In this document: piece by piece, positions 1,362 through 18,350 of the stretch | Numbering within the stretch: the stretch's first letter is position 1 | Layout of the letters: each line of letters starts with the position of its first letter | Virus record (IMG/VR): IMGVR_UViG_3300020045_006575 | Location: 1 to 40,077 of that record | Strand: one strand, 5' to 3' | Length of the DNA: 40,077 bases | Origin: a virus | Lineage: Duplodnaviria; Caudoviricetes | The notes under the pieces: generated by a model | Told to the model about the DNA's origin: nothing | Databases searched by the model: none | The model's input: the letters and a program-made list of their open reading frames with translations, nothing else | Program-made: the position numbers and the translations under genes

Positions 1362-1398
1362 CCATTTGTTCCTCTCATGTGAACGTACTAACCGTAGT

Positions 1399-1441
1399 AA
1401 TTATACCAATTGTACAGTGAAATGTGGTGTAGTTATAAACA
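1399..1441 (-). promoter_or_regulatory. Leftward extended -10 promoter for the Zn-finger cassette, with DnaA-box-like TTATAAACA
   Basis: Minus strand TTGGTATAAT at about 1399-1409; ttataaaca 1433-1441. Confidence 0.6.
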
Positions 1442-1444
1442 CAA

Positions 1445-1468
1445 AATCCCTGTCACAAGCAGGGATTT
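1445..1468. other. Inverted repeat AAATCCCTG/CAGGGATTT between divergent promoters
   Basis: 9-bp perfect arms with a short loop; operator or hairpin. Confidence 0.5.
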
Positions 1469-1520
1469 CATGCGTAACCTATCCAATACATTCTAAAATA
1501 TGTCATCCCGCTTTTCAACT

Positions 1521-1553
1521 CTGTGGACAACTTTCTCGTTAATATTGGTATAA
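1521..1553 (+). promoter_or_regulatory. Rightward extended -10 promoter for holin/endolysin, with DnaA-box-like site
   Basis: ctgtggacaact 1521-1532 then TTGGTATAAT ending at 1553. Confidence 0.6.
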
Positions 1554-1580
1554 TTACCACGTTATTAGTAAGACTAAAAT

Positions 1581-2468: not shown

Positions 2469-2515
2469 AAAACGGCCCTGTCCCACTAATAAAAAATGGG
2501 GCGGGGTCGGTTTGT
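2469..2515. terminator. Hairpin between convergent lysis and early-left operons
   Basis: CGGCCCTGTCCCA / TGGGGCGGGGTCG stem with G-U pairs on the + strand. Confidence 0.65.
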
Positions 2516-2713
2516 TAGAGGAGATTCGCTTGCGTGGGTTCCTTTCGTTTAAGTCTGTAGTGATAGATTGTCTTGTTCACTTCGTCGTTCTTACCTTCTA
2601 TGTCGTGGCCGTCGGTTTTGAGGTCGTAACAGCGTGCGCCAATTCGCGACAAACCTAAATGTGCCGCGCCGTATACTTTTTCAAGTATCTCTGGCGTACT
2701 GTGCCATTGATAG

Positions 2714-3589
<876 letters not shown>

Positions 3590-3610
3590 TTGTTTTTTAA
3601 TTATTATTTA

Positions 3611-4111
3611 TTACGCTTCTAGTGAGGTACTAGAAAACTCATCCCAACGTTTTAAGAAGTGATCCTGTGTGTCTTCGACCATTTTAATGTGATCCTCTAA
3701 GGTAGCAGGTTTTTCTAAACCAGCATTTACCCGCGCATTTACTATTGCACTCGCGACATTCATAGCGTTTGAATAGCTCATGCCTACTTCCTTACGGTCT
3801 TGGAACTCGTTGATGTTCTTCTTCTTTACCTCCATAGCGGCCGCTATGCCTGTAGGGGCTGTATTTCGCATGAAATTAGGCTTCTGTAGCACTTTCATTG
3901 GCTTTATGGATGGAAGGTACTTAGGGTCACTAGCAGGCCATAATTGGCCTTCTATCATGTGTCCGGCCATTAAGTTTTCATAGTCTGGGAAATCACCCCA
4001 CAAGGTAGCTTTAAACGTCTGCCCAGCTTCATCTTTAACGAGTACCTCTGCTTTAGCCTTACCGTCTTTGGTAGGCTTCGACTCGAAAAACTCTATCTTA
4101 AAGGATGACAT
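3611..4111 (-). CDS. Putative OB-fold ssDNA-binding/recombination protein
   Basis: Beta-rich N-terminus (KAEVLVKDEAGQTFKATLWG); early-operon position. Confidence 0.45.
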   Translation of the reverse strand: MSSFKIEFFESKPTKDGKAKAEVLVKDEAGQTFKATLWGDFPDYENLMAGHMIEGQLWPASDPKYLPSIKPMKVLQKPNFMRNTAPTGIAAAMEVKKKNINEFQDRKEVGMSYSNAMNVASAIVNARVNAGLEKPATLEDHIKMVEDTQDHFLKRWDEFSSTSLEA

Positions 4112-4350
4112 TATTTTATTAGTTTACCGAGATCGTCTATTAATGGACTGAATCTATTTAGCACTTCTTCTTTTGCTTCGATGGTTGCTTTTTCTATTGC
4201 TTCCTCTGCGTACTCAATGATGTCGTTTACATCCTTATTTTCTAGCCATGCGTCGAACATATCTTCCGCATTGTCTTTTATAATCGGCACACCGTCCACT
4301 TCTCGCAAAGCGATAAACTTATCCTGCAAAAAACTCTCAAATGTTTTCAT
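4111..4350 (-). CDS. Hypothetical acidic protein
   Basis: Coupled to neighbours by overlapping start/stop codons. Confidence 0.7.
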   Translation of the reverse strand: MKTFESFLQDKFIALREVDGVPIIKDNAEDMFDAWLENKDVNDIIEYAEEAIEKATIEAKEEVLNRFSPLIDDLGKLIK

Positions 4351-4586
4351 AATTTCATTGAATAATGCTCGGTTATCTCCTCACTTGCATTGTCAGCCGG
4401 ACTCCAGTCTGCGTCTAAACCTAATCTGTACGTTGCTTGGTACTTGGTCATGTCTGATATGAAGCCAAGCAATTTTATGTCTCTATTCGCCCATTGATTG
4501 ATCTTAGCTTTGATTGCTTTTTCCTTTTGTTCTGCTAGTACCGCCGCCCGGCGTGCCATTTTCTTTTGTAAATTTGTCGTATACAC
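4347..4586 (-). CDS. Hypothetical protein
   Basis: ATGA overlap with the next gene; start uncertain. Confidence 0.55.
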   Translation of the reverse strand: MYTTNLQKKMARRAAVLAEQKEKAIKAKINQWANRDIKLLGFISDMTKYQATYRLGLDADWSPADNASEEITEHYSMKL

Positions 4587-4740
4587 GTTGTTTTAATTCT
4601 TCTTTTTCTCGTAATCTTCCCTCCTCGACTTGGTTGATCACTTCAAGCATTTGATCCTGCGCGGTTTGCGGCCGCCATATTGGTACACCGTCCCATGTTC
4701 CCGTTACAATTATTTTTTTGCCAGTAAACTTCTCTCTCAT
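4504..4740 (-). CDS. Hypothetical protein
   Basis: ATGA overlap with upstream small membrane gene. Confidence 0.6.
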   Translation of the reverse strand: MREKFTGKKIIVTGTWDGVPIWRPQTAQDQMLEVINQVEEGRLREKEELKQRVYDKFTKENGTPGGGTSRTKGKSNQS

Positions 4741-4892
4741 AAAACATTCAAACTAGAACCCACATACCAGATACCTGCTAACGTACCAACCGCGAACACG
4801 ATACCTAGAAACAAGAGCGCGACTACTATGTCCAGCGTTTTCATCTTTGACTCTATCTGTTCGTCATTAAAGTGGCTTTTATATTCCTGCAT
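4737..4892 (-). CDS. Small single-TM protein (51 aa, not in ORF track)
   Basis: MQEYKSHFNDEQIESKMKTLDIVVALLFLGIVFAVGTLAGIWYVGSSLNVL*; first gene of the leftward operon. Confidence 0.65.
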   Translation of the reverse strand: MQEYKSHFNDEQIESKMKTLDIVVALLFLGIVFAVGTLAGIWYVGSSLNVL

Positions 4893-4917
4893 ATACTTAT
4901 ATTATTTTTATAAATGT

Positions 4918-5045
4918 GTGAGACGAGGGATGGACGCACGCTCTTTCAATTTCATCGATGGCCCCAGCGTATCGGTCAGTTTCCCTACCCGATAGCCAGA
5001 ACGTCGTTTACTCTCGTGCAATCATACGCCCATCGCTTGTCTCAC
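4918..5045 (-). ncRNA. Candidate structured RNA: 128-nt rod with central bubble (6S-like geometry) at the 5' end of the leftward transcript
   Basis: 23-position closing stem (21 paired, 3 G-U on minus strand), A-rich internal loop, apical stem UAUCGG/CCGAUA; directly downstream of the promoter. Confidence 0.6.
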
Positions 5046-5060
5046 TTCTTGTACTTTCTA

Positions 5061-5103
5061 AGTATAGGCCGCCCACAAAAAGGAAGCAAGGCCGTTATCC
5101 ACA
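5061..5103 (-). promoter_or_regulatory. Leftward sigma70 promoter TTGCTT-N17-TATACT with perfect DnaA box
   Basis: -35 at 5084-5089, -10 at 5061-5066; TTATCCACA 5095-5103. Confidence 0.75.
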
Positions 5104-5143
5104 AGTGCTTAAATACAACACAGAAATATAGATAATCAAATAG

Positions 5144-5192
5144 TTTTCCACAAGCCGCCGCCATTTACTTTACAAAGGCCGCCTAGTAATAT
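5144..5192 (+). promoter_or_regulatory. Rightward promoter TTTACT-N17-TAATAT, likely leaderless transcript
   Basis: -35 at 5164-5169, -10 at 5187-5192, ATG at 5199; DnaA-like TTTTCCACA 5144-5152. Confidence 0.6.
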
Positions 5193-5198
5193 ACTACC

Positions 5199-5321
5199 AT
5201 GAATAAGGACATCGCCAAAGAAGCTAGCAAGGGTGGCAAGGCCATTTTAGAAAAGTACGGACGGGACTATTTCAGTAAGCTCGGAAAGAAAGGTCGAAAG
5301 AAACAAAGCAAAAAAAAATGA
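5199..5321 (+). CDS. KGG-motif small basic protein (40 aa, not in ORF track)
   Basis: MNKDIAKEASKGGKAILEKYGRDYFSKLGKKGRKKQSKKK*; ATGA overlap with 5318. Confidence 0.75.
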   Translation: MNKDIAKEASKGGKAILEKYGRDYFSKLGKKGRKKQSKKK

Positions 5322-5506
5322 GCAAAAGACTTCATGACCCCGAATCCTGCTCCGTCTGCGGTATCATCACTAACAACTTTAGATCATTTGAAAAGAAATA
5401 CTATTGCATTAAAGACTACCTCGCTATGAAGCCCCGACCCTACCGAGGAAACAAGACACGGGGAGAATTAGAAGCAAGTAGGAAGAACAAGAATGGCTCG
5501 GTATAA
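5318..5506 (+). CDS. Small Zn-finger-like protein
   Basis: CSVC...YYCIKD. Confidence 0.6.
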   Translation: MSKRLHDPESCSVCGIITNNFRSFEKKYYCIKDYLAMKPRPYRGNKTRGELEASRKNKNGSV

Positions 5507-5906
5507 AGGTATCAAGGGGAAATTCTGGACGATCTTTAGCCAATACATTAGAAAACGAGACTACAAAAAATATGGAACGTGTATCACCTGCGGACAGAAA
5601 AAAGACTACAGTGAACTCCAAGCGGGTCACTACGCCCCAGCAGGAAATTGCGGTTTTGCTCTCCTCTTTTCAGAGAATAATGTCCACGGTGAATGTGCGT
5701 ATGACAACGGTTTTAATTCAGGGCATCTCATCCAATACCGGCGAGGACTGGTGTTACGATACGGACAGAAATTCGTGGTACGTCTTGAAGATCAATACAA
5801 TGACTCCCGCTATAAAGGCAAAACAACGAAAGAATGGTCGAAGAAAGAATACCAAGACAAGATTGAGGAATACAAAATAAAATTACATGCGCTGTCCCAA
5901 CTGTAA
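5493..5906 (+). CDS. ninG: NinG/Rap-like recombination endonuclease
   Basis: FSQYIRKRD...CITCG...LQAGHY...ENNVHGEC..DN motifs. Confidence 0.85.
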   Translation: MARYKGIKGKFWTIFSQYIRKRDYKKYGTCITCGQKKDYSELQAGHYAPAGNCGFALLFSENNVHGECAYDNGFNSGHLIQYRRGLVLRYGQKFVVRLEDQYNDSRYKGKTTKEWSKKEYQDKIEEYKIKLHALSQL

Positions 5907-6237
5907 CGTCATAGTCCACGATGTCCCGAAGCGTAGCTCACAACAAAATAGATTTCTCTGGTTTTATCTCGGCCTCATTTCAGACGACACTGGACACACT
6001 GCTGTTGAGCTGAACGAAATCTACAAACGTATGTTCTTACCCCCTAGATTCATTAAATACAAGGGCAAGGAGATCAAGATGGCCGCCACTACAACCACCC
6101 TTACCAAAAGTGAATTTTCAGATTACCTTGATCGTATTTGTATGGAAAGTGGTATAAAAATACCTAACCCAGAACAGTCGAACTTTATAAGTAATAATGA
6201 ACCACAGAATGTCGTATCACCATGGCGTCGTAAGTAG
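5887..6237 (+). CDS. NinB/Orf-like recombination protein
   Basis: KRSSQQNRFLW...TTTLTKSEFSDYLDRI motifs. Confidence 0.7.
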   Translation: MRCPNCNVIVHDVPKRSSQQNRFLWFYLGLISDDTGHTAVELNEIYKRMFLPPRFIKYKGKEIKMAATTTTLTKSEFSDYLDRICMESGIKIPNPEQSNFISNNEPQNVVSPWRRK

Positions 6238-6242
6238 CCCTT

Positions 6243-6362
6243 CGGTAGATGTATTGAGTAGTTCTTATATCGGAGGTGGAAAACTGGAGACGTGAACCCA
6301 AGTAGAGGGGTGGTGAACAAAAATAATAAATGTCTACCGTCTCCAGTTCTCCCTCCCCGATA
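6243..6362. other. Intergenic long imperfect hairpin with an alternative/crossing helix
   Basis: 6268-6292 pairs 6338-6362 (22 of 25 positions on + strand); 6243-6252 pairs 6330-6339. Confidence 0.6.
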
Positions 6363-6372
6363 GTAGAGAAAG

Positions 6373-6624
6373 ATGGATATGAAAAAGAAAATCAGCACAA
6401 CAAAAATTAGTGAAGCGTGGGCTAATTCTATGGCCGAAAAATGGGCAGAAACTTGTGAGAACTTTTTTGTGCCCTCAATGGTTAATTTGACTCCCCCAAC
6501 TAAGAAACTAGAGTTGGCTTGGGAGAAAAGATTGCAGGAAGAAAAACGCCGAGCTAAGAAGATAACGATGACAGTAGGAGAATTAGAAGATATGTTAGAA
6601 GAAGCAGGAAATGATTACGATTAG
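6373..6624 (+). CDS. Hypothetical protein
   Basis: ORF in operon direction. Confidence 0.6.
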   Translation: MDMKKKISTTKISEAWANSMAEKWAETCENFFVPSMVNLTPPTKKLELAWEKRLQEEKRRAKKITMTVGELEDMLEEAGNDYD

Positions 6625-6660
6625 TCGCCCCCCACAATACTAAATAAGCAGACCCAAAAA

Positions 6661-7140
6661 ATGAAAACAATCAAATTAACACAAAACCAAGTCACAATCG
6701 TAGATAACGATGACTTTGAGTATTTGAACCAGTTTAAGTGGTGTGCGAAGTGGCACCAATATACACTGTCATTTTATGCTGTTCGTTGTAGCTATAATCA
6801 GGAGACTAAAAAACAAAAACTAATCCCAATGCACCGTGAGATTATGCAACCCTCTGCAGGTATGGTCGTAGACCATATAAACCATGACACGCTTGACAAT
6901 ACGAGAAAAAACTTACGGGTTTGCACGCAGTCTAAGAATCGGATGAATTCTGGGAAACAAAAAAACAATACCAGCGGGGTAAAAGGTGTCTGCTGGCACA
7001 AAAGAGATAAAAAGTGGCGTGCAGATATTAGCATCAACGGAAAACGAAAGCATCTTGGGAATTTCTCAACAAAAGAATTTGCATACGAATCCTATATCAA
7101 AGCCTGCAAAAAATATCATAAAGAGTTTGCAAATTATTAG
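6661..7140 (+). CDS. HNH endonuclease with C-terminal AP2 domain
   Basis: VVDHINHDTLDNTRKNLR; NNTSGVKGVCWHKRDKKWRADI...HLGNF. Confidence 0.92.
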   Translation: MKTIKLTQNQVTIVDNDDFEYLNQFKWCAKWHQYTLSFYAVRCSYNQETKKQKLIPMHREIMQPSAGMVVDHINHDTLDNTRKNLRVCTQSKNRMNSGKQKNNTSGVKGVCWHKRDKKWRADISINGKRKHLGNFSTKEFAYESYIKACKKYHKEFANY

Positions 7141-7177
7141 TAATAGTTAAAAAGAAAGGTAAAACATAAATAATATA

Positions 7178-7462
7178 ATGGAAACAAAAGATACTATGGA
7201 AACAAACAATGACATCACAATAAAAAACTTTAGGTGTAGTAAACACGGAAGAGTAAAGCCTATACCAAAGTGTCCAGAGTGCCTCCAAGAACAGCACAAC
7301 TCCCTCCTAGATGAACTACTCTCGGAGGTGAAGAAAAAGAAATATAAGATACCACCACGAAATCCCTCGTTAGCCAGAAATTTAGAAAATATGAGGCAGA
7401 GTGGTTACAACCAAGCCCTAGAAGATGTCACAGCCATTATTAATCATAAGAAACTCAATTGA
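7178..7462 (+). CDS. Hypothetical protein (CxxH/CxxC; GYNQALED motif)
   Basis: ORF track. Confidence 0.6.
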   Translation: METKDTMETNNDITIKNFRCSKHGRVKPIPKCPECLQEQHNSLLDELLSEVKKKKYKIPPRNPSLARNLENMRQSGYNQALEDVTAIINHKKLN

Positions 7463-7551
7463 AACACCCCATCAAAACATTCGGATTGTCGCTCTACGTT
7501 TGGGTAGGATGTTACATTTTCCTGTGGTGTTTACTACTGTTTGTTTCTTAA
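7459..7551 (+). CDS. 30-aa hydrophobic peptide (not in ORF track)
   Basis: TTG start overlapping the upstream TGA; MKHPIKTFGLSLYVWVGCYIFLWCLLLFVS*. Confidence 0.4.
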   Translation: MKHPIKTFGLSLYVWVGCYIFLWCLLLFVS

Positions 7552-7552
7552 A

Positions 7553-7601
7553 AGTTGTCCACAGATATCCCCTTTGTAAGACGTATGGGTGGTGATATAA
7601 T
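7553..7601 (+). promoter_or_regulatory. Replication-operon promoter (TTGTAA-N16-TATAAT, extended TG) with DnaA-box-like site
   Basis: AGTTGTCCACAG 7553-7564; TGATATAAT 7593-7601. Confidence 0.7.
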
Positions 7602-7607
7602 TACAGT

Positions 7608-7708
7608 GCTCGAAAGAGCCAACGAACGTCCTGCTCTATAAGAGTTTTAAGAATCTCTGCACAGAGCGGGCAATCGAAAGGTTGACCGTTCGTTGCGGAG
7701 ATTTTTTT
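7608..7708 (+). ncRNA. Cis-regulatory leader RNA: terminator/antiterminator switch before the initiator gene
   Basis: Two GAAA-tetraloop hairpins; mutually exclusive folds, one a long hairpin ending in U7 that buries GGAG before ATG 7709. Confidence 0.7.
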
Positions 7709-8548
7709 ATGAGCAAAAAAAGAATGATCGACACGAGAATATGGTACGACTCATGGATTCGTACTCTTAATGCTCTTGATCGTTACCTATTTTTGTATCT
7801 ATTGACAAACGACAAGTGCACGTTTTGTGGTATTTACGAGTGCCCTCTCGACATAATGGCTGTTGACACAGGGATAGAAAAAGACGAACTCCAGAAAGTT
7901 ATGCTCCCACGCCTAAGACCGAAGGTTGAGTATTGTGATGGATGGGTTTATTTAATCAATTTCAAAAAACACCACGTAAACGAGTCGCCTAACGCAGAGA
8001 AGGGGTATTATTCTGCATTAAGTGAGGTTCCTAGCCATATTTTAAACAAATTTGGCTTAATTAACAAGCCCCTTGAAGCCCCCTCGAGCCCCTTGGAGGG
8101 TCTTGGGTACTCTTCTTCTGCTTCTGCTCTTACTTTTAAGAAGAGAACACCACTTGCTCCAAAGTCGTCGCAAGATGGTTTAATCACTAAAAAAATGAAG
8201 AAGAACAAACTAGGGAGCTACCGTGAGGATCGGGACAGTGAGGCGTATGAGGAAGTGGTTGACCTTGAGACAGGTGAGAAGAAGATCGAAGCACCGAAAA
8301 CCGATCTAAGTGAGAAATACTGGGAGATGATTCATTGGGCCGAAAACCGCCGTGGCTCCAAGTTTTTAAAAGAATCAATCAAAAAACAATTCAAAGCGTT
8401 TAAAATCGCCAGAGAGAATAATATAAGCTCAAGTATGCTCCAAGCGCGATGGGTTGATTTTGAGAAAATAAAGTGGCGACAGGAAAACGGATGGGATTTT
8501 ATGGACATTGTTCTAAACTTTAATAAAAAACATGATCGAAATATCTAA
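7709..8548 (+). CDS. Phage replication initiator / replisome organizer
   Basis: N-terminal RMIDTRIWYD...RYLFLYLLTN...GIYE HTH-type domain; internal iteron-like repeats; directly upstream of the helicase. Confidence 0.75.
   Translation: MSKKRMIDTRIWYDSWIRTLNALDRYLFLYLLTNDKCTFCGIYECPLDIMAVDTGIEKDELQKVMLPRLRPKVEYCDGWVYLINFKKHHVNESPNAEKGYYSALSEVPSHILNKFGLINKPLEAPSSPLEGLGYSSSASALTFKKRTPLAPKSSQDGLITKKMKKNKLGSYREDRDSEAYEEVVDLETGEKKIEAPKTDLSEKYWEMIHWAENRRGSKFLKESIKKQFKAFKIARENNISSSMLQARWVDFEKIKWRQENGWDFMDIVLNFNKKHDRNI
8066..8140 (+). repeat. Putative origin iterons inside the initiator gene
   Basis: AGCCCC at 8067, 8077 and 8087 (10-bp phase) followed by TCTTCT/TCTGCT repeats. Confidence 0.55.
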
Positions 8549-18238: not shown

Positions 18239-18249
18239 CGACTCAACCC

Positions 18250-18350
18250 CTTCGGGGGTTTCAGGGATTGTGACGGCGACCTCCATCCAATCCCTGAACT
18301 CCCTGCAGGGGATTACTAACTGGCGCAGGGTTTGCGTCTCCAAAAAACCA
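18250..18350 (+). other. Intergenic structured element (long hairpin plus GGGTTTGC...CAAAAAACC motif)
   Basis: TTCAGGGATTG/CAATCCCTGAA 11-bp perfect stem with extensions; alternative CCCC-TTCG-GGGG hairpin. Confidence 0.6.

What the first reader, a model, noticed from the sequence alone, without database searches (positions are those of the whole stretch)
4918..5066. 6S-RNA-like rod transcribed first from the leftward early promoter
Seen (minus strand): GUGAGACAAGCGAUGGGCGUAUG pairs with CGUGCGUCCAUCCCUCGUCUCAC (21 of 23 positions, G-U pairs favour this strand). Inside are a purine-rich bubble of about 20+20 nt and an apical stem GUUCUGGC-UAUCGG...CCGAUA-C-GCUGGGGC. It begins about 15 nt after a TTGCTT-N17-TATACT promoter. 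Established: 6S RNA mimics an open promoter with stem-bubble-stem geometry and sequesters sigma70-RNAP, and HK022 put RNAs act from early leaders. Inference: a phage-encoded RNAP-binding RNA (6S mimic or RNA antiterminator), or an RNase III processing stem. It is shorter than typical 6S.
Basis: partly seen in the sequence, partly recalled or inferred. Interest (0 to 1): 0.8.

Follow-up and report, generated by a model that had tools for sequence, protein, structure and literature searches.

The report
Long-stalked RNA rod opening phage transcript
Right after a likely early promoter, this uncultured phage carries a unique 128-base sequence predicted to fold into a stable RNA rod; it matches no catalogued RNA, including 6S RNA, and is most likely one of many long-stem leader modules of this phage group that host RNase III would cut, which is untested.

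Summary
The structure is real as a prediction. Window 5045-4918 (minus strand) has a closing stem with 21 of 23 positions paired and a GU-rich apical stem (z -5.5; opposite strand -2.6). It starts 15 nt after TTGCTT-17-TATACT, a promoter preceded by a DnaA-box-like motif typical of related phages. The 6S reading is not supported: no match to 6S or 6S-Flavo at E up to 10, 128 nt against about 200, and the 'bubble' is predicted to be partly paired (only 1.5 kcal/mol from open), with a possible bulged-G module. No homologue was found in 166 other records, so covariation is untested, and no sequencing run was listed. Relatives, probably phages of Patescibacteria, repeatedly place 15-31-bp stalks around unrelated interiors just after promoters, sometimes in arrays. 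In one pair of relatives the stalk is kept while the interior is replaced. The enrichment after promoters was significant in the discovery set but weak in a second set. Best reading (0.45): an RNase III-type stalk at the start of the leftward early transcript, with a variable inner RNA. A miniature 6S-type decoy stays possible (about 0.1). Interest 0.42.

The parts
5095..5103 (+). DnaA-box-like motif TTATCCACA, 5 nt before the -35 hexamer of the leftward promoter (label recalled)
   Evidence: box plus promoter found 21 times in 625 kb of relatives against 0-3 in five shuffles
5144..5152 (+). second DnaA-box-like motif, before the rightward promoter
5061..5089 (-). predicted leftward sigma-70-type promoter TTGCTT-17-TATACT; start site inferred near 5054
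   Evidence: sequence; 8 of 12 consensus positions; no transcript data
5164..5192 (+). predicted divergent rightward promoter TTTACT-17-TAATAT, 6 nt before the ATG of the 40-aa ORF at 5199 (likely leaderless)
5023..5045 (-). 5' arm of the closing stem (stalk)
5007..5022 (-). 5' strand of the central loop (16 nt); holds CGA 5016-5014 that can pair across, and AGUA 5012-5009 of a possible bulged-G module
4956..5006 (-). apical arm: 3 + 14 + 2 predicted pairs, four G-U, capped by a GGAAA loop
4941..4955 (-). 3' strand of the central loop (15 nt); holds GAA 4953-4951 in register with AGUA, and UUG 4949-4947
4918..4940 (-). 3' arm of the closing stem; no U-tract follows
4908..4955 (-). 15-codon ORF starting in the 3' loop strand and running through the 3' arm; significance unknown
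4893..4917 (-). 25-nt AU-rich spacer without a Shine-Dalgarno motif; the rod does not cover the first start codon
4737..4892 (-). first leftward ORF (51 aa, no Pfam or PHROG match), head of a run of small leftward ORFs

Best explanation
This is a predicted 128-nt RNA rod at the likely 5' end of the phage's leftward early transcript, whose 23-position closing stem most likely serves as a stalk that host RNase III would cut, freeing the inner RNA of about 100 nt and leaving the early mRNA with a short AU-rich leader. Shown: the complementarity, its strand bias, its place between a clade-typical promoter and the first leftward gene, and the recurrence of long stalks with unrelated interiors after promoters in relatives. 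Inferred: transcription, folding in the cell, RNase III cleavage, and any function of the released part. If it is not cut, the same stalk would act as a 5' stabiliser. The interior is probably a largely continuous irregular helix (possibly with a bulged-G module) that binds a protein, not an open-promoter mimic.
For: Fold z -5.52 on the strand of the promoter and downstream genes. Stalk of 21 pairs in 23 positions; the RNase III dimer holds about 22 bp and double-cut sites lie 16-1080 nt apart, median 58 (PMC6212723, passages). In relatives, an 18-position stem score of 28 or more begins 5-50 nt after a predicted promoter in 12 of 378 cases against 1 of 370 on the upstream side (p 0.003), and after 3 of 21 box-marked promoters in a second set against 5 of 604 random positions (p 0.002). 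Twenty such units, this one included, have outer helices of 15-31 pairs and 1-3 hairpin loops inside; all-against-all BLAST of 79 rods gave this rod no partner. Tandem arrays of stalked units occur in L002 (3), L003 (4), L052, L054 and L035 (2 each), the last directly ahead of a tmRNA gene. Between L052 and L054 both flanks align (90% over 273 nt, 93% over 57 nt), the interior does not, and all 20 stalk pairs are kept through 4 one-sided and 2 two-sided changes. L052 15765-15863 and L068 14326-14470 repeat the order box, promoter, stalked unit, first gene. Phage precedents: T7 R1.1 and lambda N mRNA are RNase III targets (PMC8708148, passages).
Against: No homologue of this rod, so no covariation for it. 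No cleavage or expression data. Host RNase III was not checked, because no host genome could be reached. The general promoter test did not replicate in the second set (7 of 423 against 2 of 429, p 0.11; at the first set's promoter cut-off 3 of 198 against 1 of 198), and was flat in 80 DUF6948 loci (1 of 168 against 2 of 173). The first set suggested the idea and holds near-duplicate records; at stem score 32 its p was 0.07. The random-position control is mostly coding DNA from the first set. Only 5 of 48 box-marked promoters in relatives have a stalk. The class is mixed: several units end in U-tracts like terminators, and some fold about equally on both strands like DNA inverted repeats (L222, L058). 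The scan demands an 18-position stem, so stalk lengths near 22 are partly built in. The L052/L054 comparison has two sequences only (124 of 500 shuffles reach it). RNase III sequence determinants were not scored.
Confidence: 0.45

Rival explanations
1. The rod is not cut but persists as a stable RNA (alone or at the mRNA 5' end) whose continuous irregular helix binds or decoys a host protein, for instance a double-strand RNA sensor, nuclease or translation factor.
For: Only small loops remain in the predicted fold. AGUA and GAA lie in exact register with an adjacent A-U pair, as in a bulged-G (loop E type) module (motif recalled): 2.5% of 200,000 shuffles of the two loop strands give the register and 1.0% give it with the adjacent pair. 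L052 15758-15871 has the same two words inside its stalk.
Against: The motif was noticed after the fact. The descriptor found 2 hits in 1.48 Mb of relatives, the window included, against 1-4 for six control word pairs. No candidate protein is known.
Confidence: 0.17
2. A miniature 6S-type RNA: the central loop opens, mimics an open promoter and binds the host sigma-70 holoenzyme, damping or re-timing transcription.
For: Stem, loop, stem geometry with a purine-rich 16+15-nt loop whose open form is only 1.5 kcal/mol above the minimum. A 78-nt B. subtilis 6S-1 fragment still binds (about tenfold weaker) and makes pRNA, and the terminal stem is dispensable (PMC8876501, passages). L039 5675-5760 has a similar stem-loop-stem shape after a promoter-like site.
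Against: No RF00013 or 6S-Flavo match at E up to 10; the RF00013 genome search found no candidate, though it reached the cut-off in only 4 of 14 control genomes. 128 nt against about 200, apical arm about 19 pairs; in E. coli, shortening the apical stem abolished binding. No RNA polymerase or sigma factor family among 50 window proteins scanned with Pfam, so the phage appears to need the enzyme it would block. Positional counterparts mostly lack the shape.
Confidence: 0.11
3. A cis-acting nascent-RNA element that modifies elongating RNA polymerase (put-like antiterminator) or switches between two folds during transcription.
For: First element after an early promoter; no N-like family found. 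Before the 3' arm is made, the 5' arm and 5' loop strand are predicted to form another hairpin (-10.6 kcal/mol at 60 nt).
Against: put is an about 65-nt double hairpin (PMC8632103, passages), not a long-range rod; no Rfam match. No terminator-like site in 2500-8000 for it to overcome (0 found, 4.8 expected).
Confidence: 0.1
4. A DNA-level inverted repeat or chance structure with no RNA function.
For: No homologue. Block-shuffled windows give 0-3 hits in my stem scan against 5 in the real window. DNA parameters fold both strands alike (-20.1 and -20.8). Operator-like inverted repeats exist in relatives' control regions (L222).
Against: z -5.5; two nested helices, not one; seven G-U pairs on the promoter's strand; a 54% GC island next to a 19% GC spacer.
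Confidence: 0.11
5. Translational control through the 15-codon ORF that starts in the 3' loop strand: ribosomes would open the stalk or deliver reinitiation to the first gene.
For: ORF 4955-4908 begins in an A-rich, partly open strand and stops 15 nt before the first gene; the phage's genes lack Shine-Dalgarno motifs (1 of 34).
Against: Short ORFs arise by chance; no conservation could be tested; the first start codon is not covered by the rod.
Confidence: 0.06

Closest known systems
Phage RNase III leader stems: lambda N leader hairpin and T7 early sites (R0.3, R1.1)
   Same: Long stem between an early promoter and the first gene, sized for an RNase III dimer (about 22 bp, PMC6212723 passages). 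T7 R1.1 and lambda N regulation seen in PMC8708148 passages; the lambda N leader and T7 early papers seen only as titles in the reference list of PMC5371410; the lambda leader's size and place are recalled.
   Different: No nut site or N family found; the start codon is not covered; host probably Patescibacteria; relatives carry unrelated, apparently exchangeable interiors and tandem arrays; cleavage not shown.
6S RNA (Rfam RF00013) and 6S-Flavo
   Same: Unbranched rod with closing stem, central loop and apical stem; purine-rich loop.
   Different: 128 nt against about 200; no covariance-model match at E up to 10; central loop predicted partly paired; phage-borne; polymerase binding untested.
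HK022 put RNAs
   Same: Structured RNA directly behind an early promoter of a phage with no recognisable N protein.
   Different: put is an about 65-nt double hairpin (PMC8632103 passages); this is one 128-nt long-range rod.
PeSL promoter/stem-loop cassettes of T4-type phages (PMC2839356, PMC4122927; search listing and abstract starts only)
   Same: A sigma-70-type promoter coupled to a stem-loop in a variable early region.
   Different: Listed there as conserved promoter-terminator motifs; here a single-copy long-range stalk enclosing 82 nt, without U-tract or sequence conservation.

Membership tests
6S RNA (RF00013, 6S-Flavo) | Match to the family covariance model | tested here: not met
   no match at gathering score or at E up to 10; 0 candidates in the genome search, which reached the cut-off in 4 of 14 control genomes
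6S RNA (RF00013, 6S-Flavo) | Unbranched rod with closing and apical arms | tested here: met
   (prediction)
6S RNA (RF00013, 6S-Flavo) | Largely unpaired central bubble | tested here: inconclusive
   3-bp helix inside at p 0.82; open form 1.5 kcal/mol higher
6S RNA (RF00013, 6S-Flavo) | Length about 200 nt with an apical arm reaching a -35-like region | tested here: not met
   128 nt, apical arm about 19 pairs; model length 187, about 200 nt in PMC8876501
6S RNA (RF00013, 6S-Flavo) | Binds sigma-70 holoenzyme and templates pRNA | not testable with these tools
   needs gel shift and transcription assay
RNase III processing stem | Helix of about 22 bp | tested here: met
   21 of 23 positions paired; size from PMC6212723
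RNase III processing stem | Proximal/distal box base-pair preferences | not tested
   the scoring table of PMC6212723 is in a figure and supplement that I did not open
RNase III processing stem | Staggered cleavage with 2-nt 3' overhang; enzyme present in the host | not testable with these tools
   no RNA run listed; no host genome reachable
HK022 put antiterminator | About 65-nt double hairpin | tested here: not met
   single 128-nt rod; put description
HK022 put antiterminator | Read-through of terminators in cis | not testable with these tools
   needs a transcription assay
Intrinsic terminator | Short GC-rich hairpin followed by a U-tract | tested here: not met
   0 sites in 2500-8000; the rod is followed by an A-rich spacer

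The most novel reading that the evidence does not exclude
These probable Patescibacteria phages use long RNase III stalks as exchangeable cassettes to release small RNA effectors from their first transcripts, and the payload here is a miniature 6S-type open-promoter mimic that binds the host holoenzyme: a phage-made RNA decoy of RNA polymerase.
Probability: 0.1. Interest if true: 0.85.

Novelty: new variant of a known kind. Interest (0 to 1): 0.42.

Why it matters
If the best reading holds, a large uncultured phage group (1592 capsid proteins at E up to 1e-50) opens transcripts with long stalks that enclose interchangeable RNA domains, which gives a rule for finding many new phage small RNAs that sequence search misses. 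If the 6S-like reading held, it would be a phage RNA that binds host RNA polymerase as a promoter mimic; searches of the held library showed no such case by title or abstract start. As it stands the element is a single, unreplicated structure prediction.

Tried and rejected
Homologue searches, all negative. blastn against 50,697 phage records: 19 short chance matches, none over 11% of the query; plasmids: none. Exact 20-nt pattern in viral contigs: 0. 16-nt apical pattern: 4 matches, none in a similar rod. Covariance model R1, built from this one sequence and so of low sensitivity: 0 of 48, 0 of 40, 0 of 40 and 0 of 38 records at E up to 1 (8 of the 46 handles were not held). Locus searches gave only stem-only or motif-only hits. 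The best-looking one, L222 18163-18283 (E 0.34), folds alike on both strands with an AT-rich interior and was rejected. nhmmer over 1.86 Mb: nothing but the pattern hit. Neighbour proteins found no close relative: NinG 45-68% in 2 viral and 11 metagenome loci, DnaB and the 166-aa ORF none, the 40-aa ORF only itself. Closest terminase relatives (75-80%) are fragments that appear to lack the control region. Sequencing runs: none was listed, which is no evidence on expression. Rfam: nothing at gathering score in the window or for the counterparts in L052, L039, L068, L061. Antisense role: longest complement elsewhere in the genome 12 nt, not pursued. T-box, SRP, retron and hammerhead readings were considered by eye and dropped: no Rfam hit, and no reverse transcriptase family among 50 proteins. 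A shared bulged-G family was not supported by the descriptor scan. Aligning 8 U-tailed units from relatives gave no usable consensus (5 pairs). One 6S survey paper asked for by DOI was not held; the search for the lambda N leader hairpin found 0 papers.

Full report
Context. The window is a whole 40,077-base virus record, estimated complete. It encodes NinG, NinB, an HNH/AP2 nuclease, a replication initiator, DnaB, terminase, a P22-like portal and a major head protein on the plus strand, and a run of small unknown ORFs on the minus strand from 4892 leftwards. No integrase, repressor, sigma factor, RNA polymerase or reverse transcriptase family was found among 50 proteins scanned with Pfam. The host is probably a Patescibacteria-group bacterium: one capsid protein 80% identical is named so by NCBI (P0014; the only informative name among 120 listed), and only 1 of 34 genes has a Shine-Dalgarno-like word (that such hosts use few of them is recalled). 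One terminase relative lies on an 8.7-kb contig of a Gallionella MAG, which points elsewhere or is a binning error.

The observation. The arms 5045-5023 and 4940-4918 pair at 21 of 23 positions on the minus strand, and the apical arm is as described. The minus strand folds at -56.1 kcal/mol (z -5.52, 0 of 200 shuffles), the plus strand at -43.1 (z -2.62, 3 of 200). Seven of 40 modelled pairs are G-U, which fits a single-stranded molecule read in the direction of the promoter and the downstream genes. The promoter TTGCTT-17-TATACT matches only 8 of 12 consensus positions and was not listed by the stock scan, but it is preceded by a DnaA-box-like motif, and this pairing is a signature of the group: 27 and 21 cases in two sets of relatives, against 0-3 in five shuffles of the second set. 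The rod starts 15 nt after the -10 hexamer and ends 25 nt before the first leftward start codon; no U-tract follows, and the start codon is not covered.

The bubble. The open 16+15 form costs 1.5 kcal/mol, so prediction cannot decide. The remaining 7x6 loop has AGUA opposite GAA in register, as in bulged-G modules (motif recalled); 2.5% of shuffles give the register and 1.0% give it with the neighbouring pair. This was noticed after the fact, and a descriptor scan of 1.48 Mb gave 2 hits (this rod and L052) against 1-4 for control words. I treat it as a hint that the rod may be a nearly continuous helix.

Family tests. Rfam gives nothing at gathering score in the window and no 6S, 6S-Flavo or other credible family at E up to 10. 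The RF00013 genome search found no candidate, with the caveat that it reached the cut-off in only 4 of 14 control genomes. 6S RNAs are about 200 nt; a 78-nt fragment of B. subtilis 6S-1 still binds about tenfold more weakly and makes pRNA, whereas shortening the apical stem abolished binding in E. coli (PMC8876501, passages). So small size lowers but does not remove the 6S-like reading. That E. coli 6S is cut from a longer transcript is recalled; the missing terminator is therefore not counted against it. put RNA is an about 65-nt double hairpin (PMC8632103, passages) and does not fit.

Homologues. None was found. BLAST, two exact patterns, nhmmer and a one-sequence covariance model over 166 other records (165 virus records and one MAG) were negative or gave stem-only hits. 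The early region of this phage has no close relative in the collections. No sequencing run was listed. Covariation and expression are therefore untested, not refuted.

What relatives show. A scan for 20-position long-range stems gave 79 hits in 848 kb; the window has 5 and shuffled windows 0-3, so part are chance. Many sit just after promoters and 5-55 nt before an ATG. In the first set, 12 of 378 predicted promoters had a stem starting 5-50 nt downstream against 1 of 370 upstream (p 0.003; 10 against 1 at score 30, p 0.011; 7 against 1 at score 32, p 0.07; window left out). In a second set of 625 kb fetched afterwards the direction was the same but not significant (7 of 423 against 2 of 429, p 0.11), and in 80 DUF6948 loci, probably mostly of other phage groups, there was no effect. 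Limited to box-marked promoters, 2 of 27 and 3 of 21 had a stalk against 5 of 604 random positions (p 0.002 for the second set), a control that is mostly coding DNA. Twenty hand-picked promoter-proximal units have outer helices of 15-31 pairs and one to three hairpin loops, and 19 of 20 fold better on the promoter's strand, partly because the scan allows G-U on that strand. Units also form tandem arrays, once ahead of a tmRNA gene. In two related phages (L052, L054) the flanks align, the interior of about 120 nt does not, and all 20 stalk pairs survive six changes (two sequences, not significant alone). The class is mixed: some members end in U-tracts and some look like DNA inverted repeats.

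Mechanism. The feature shared across the group is the stalk, not the interior. Its size fits the roughly 22 bp held by an RNase III dimer, and long distances between the two cuts are usual (PMC6212723, passages). T7 and lambda give precedents for RNase III sites in early phage transcripts (PMC8708148, passages; PMC5371410, passages and reference titles), and cleavage can stabilise or destabilise the product. I therefore read the element as a stalked leader module: transcribed first (inferred), folded (predicted), cut by host RNase III (inferred, untested), leaving an AU-rich leader on the early mRNA and an inner RNA of about 100 nt that would most likely bind a protein. Confidence 0.45. Rivals: uncut protein-binding rod 0.17, 6S-type decoy 0.11, no RNA function 0.11, put-like or switching element 0.10, short-ORF control 0.06.

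Novelty. Searches of the held library for 6S RNA with phage-encoded (16 papers, 13 listed), with Patescibacteria (1), with candidate phyla radiation (0), for 6S-like with phage and structured RNA (0), and for Patescibacteria, phage, non-coding RNA and RNase III (461 with three of four terms, 15 listed) showed, by title and abstract start, no description of this element or of a phage-encoded 6S RNA. Subscription papers are largely missing, and supplements of phage RNA-motif surveys were not examined and may list related motifs. Earlier notes of this scan describe stem-closed modules after first promoters in other phages; these are unchecked leads and are not counted as support.

Verdict. A real, strand-specific predicted RNA rod in a credible leader position; not a member of 6S RNA; most likely a new variant of RNase III-type leader stems with a variable interior; unreplicated. 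Interest 0.42; most novel reading (a miniature 6S-type payload) probability 0.1, interest 0.85.

Noticed in passing
window 6260-6370: Second long-stem unit between NinB and the next gene, with two inner hairpins; z -5.6 on plus and -7.4 on minus. No promoter-like site within 90 nt.
   Followed up: partly
window 1385-1569: Inverted repeat of about 30 nt enclosing 109 nt with a second hairpin, between the lysis-side and leftward genes; may be DNA-level.
   Followed up: no
window 7574-7690 (+): Promoter-like TTGTAA-16-TATAAT followed by a folded leader (z -4.6) whose last hairpin ends in a U-tract just ahead of the first ATG of the replication initiator ORF; attenuator-like.
   Followed up: partly
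L060 18254-18347, L063 17003-17096, L065 7520-7618, L033 161-260, L044 5603-5699, L164 1686-1766, L233 909-980: Stalked units of 72-100 nt ending in U-tracts, most after strong promoters, several directly before replication-initiator-like genes; possible attenuators or small RNA genes. A plain alignment of 8 such units gave no consensus.
   Followed up: partly
L002 6612-6924, L003 2913-3578, L052 8404-8736, L054 16975-17299, L035 6860-7071: Tandem arrays of 2-4 abutting stalked RNA-like units; in L035 followed at once by a tmRNA gene (7072-7399); some interiors look tRNA-like by eye but were not called by ARAGORN or Rfam.
   Followed up: partly
L052 8569-8736 versus L054 17141-17299: Homologous 20-bp stalk kept through six changes while the interior is unrelated: possible payload exchange.
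   Followed up: yes
window 5095-5103, 5144-5152 and 48 sites in relatives: DnaA-box-like motif within 30 nt upstream of the -35 hexamer as a promoter signature of this phage group; suggests control by a host DNA-binding protein.
   Followed up: partly
window 5073-5067 and 5183-5177 (minus): GGCGGCC occurs within both divergent promoters, between the hexamers; possible operator.
   Followed up: no
window 2940-3242 (minus): 100-aa ORF made of Gly-Ser/Gly-Tyr/Gly-Asp repeats directly behind the DUF6948 gene; a similar repeat stretch lies in L052 10565-10818.
   Followed up: no
window 18247-18311: 24-bp hairpin with a 17-nt loop between two head-cluster genes.
   Followed up: no
L014, L015, L024, L055 and other relatives: ORFs that read like chaperonin (GroEL/GroES) genes near the terminase, by eye from N-terminal sequence; not scanned.
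   Followed up: no
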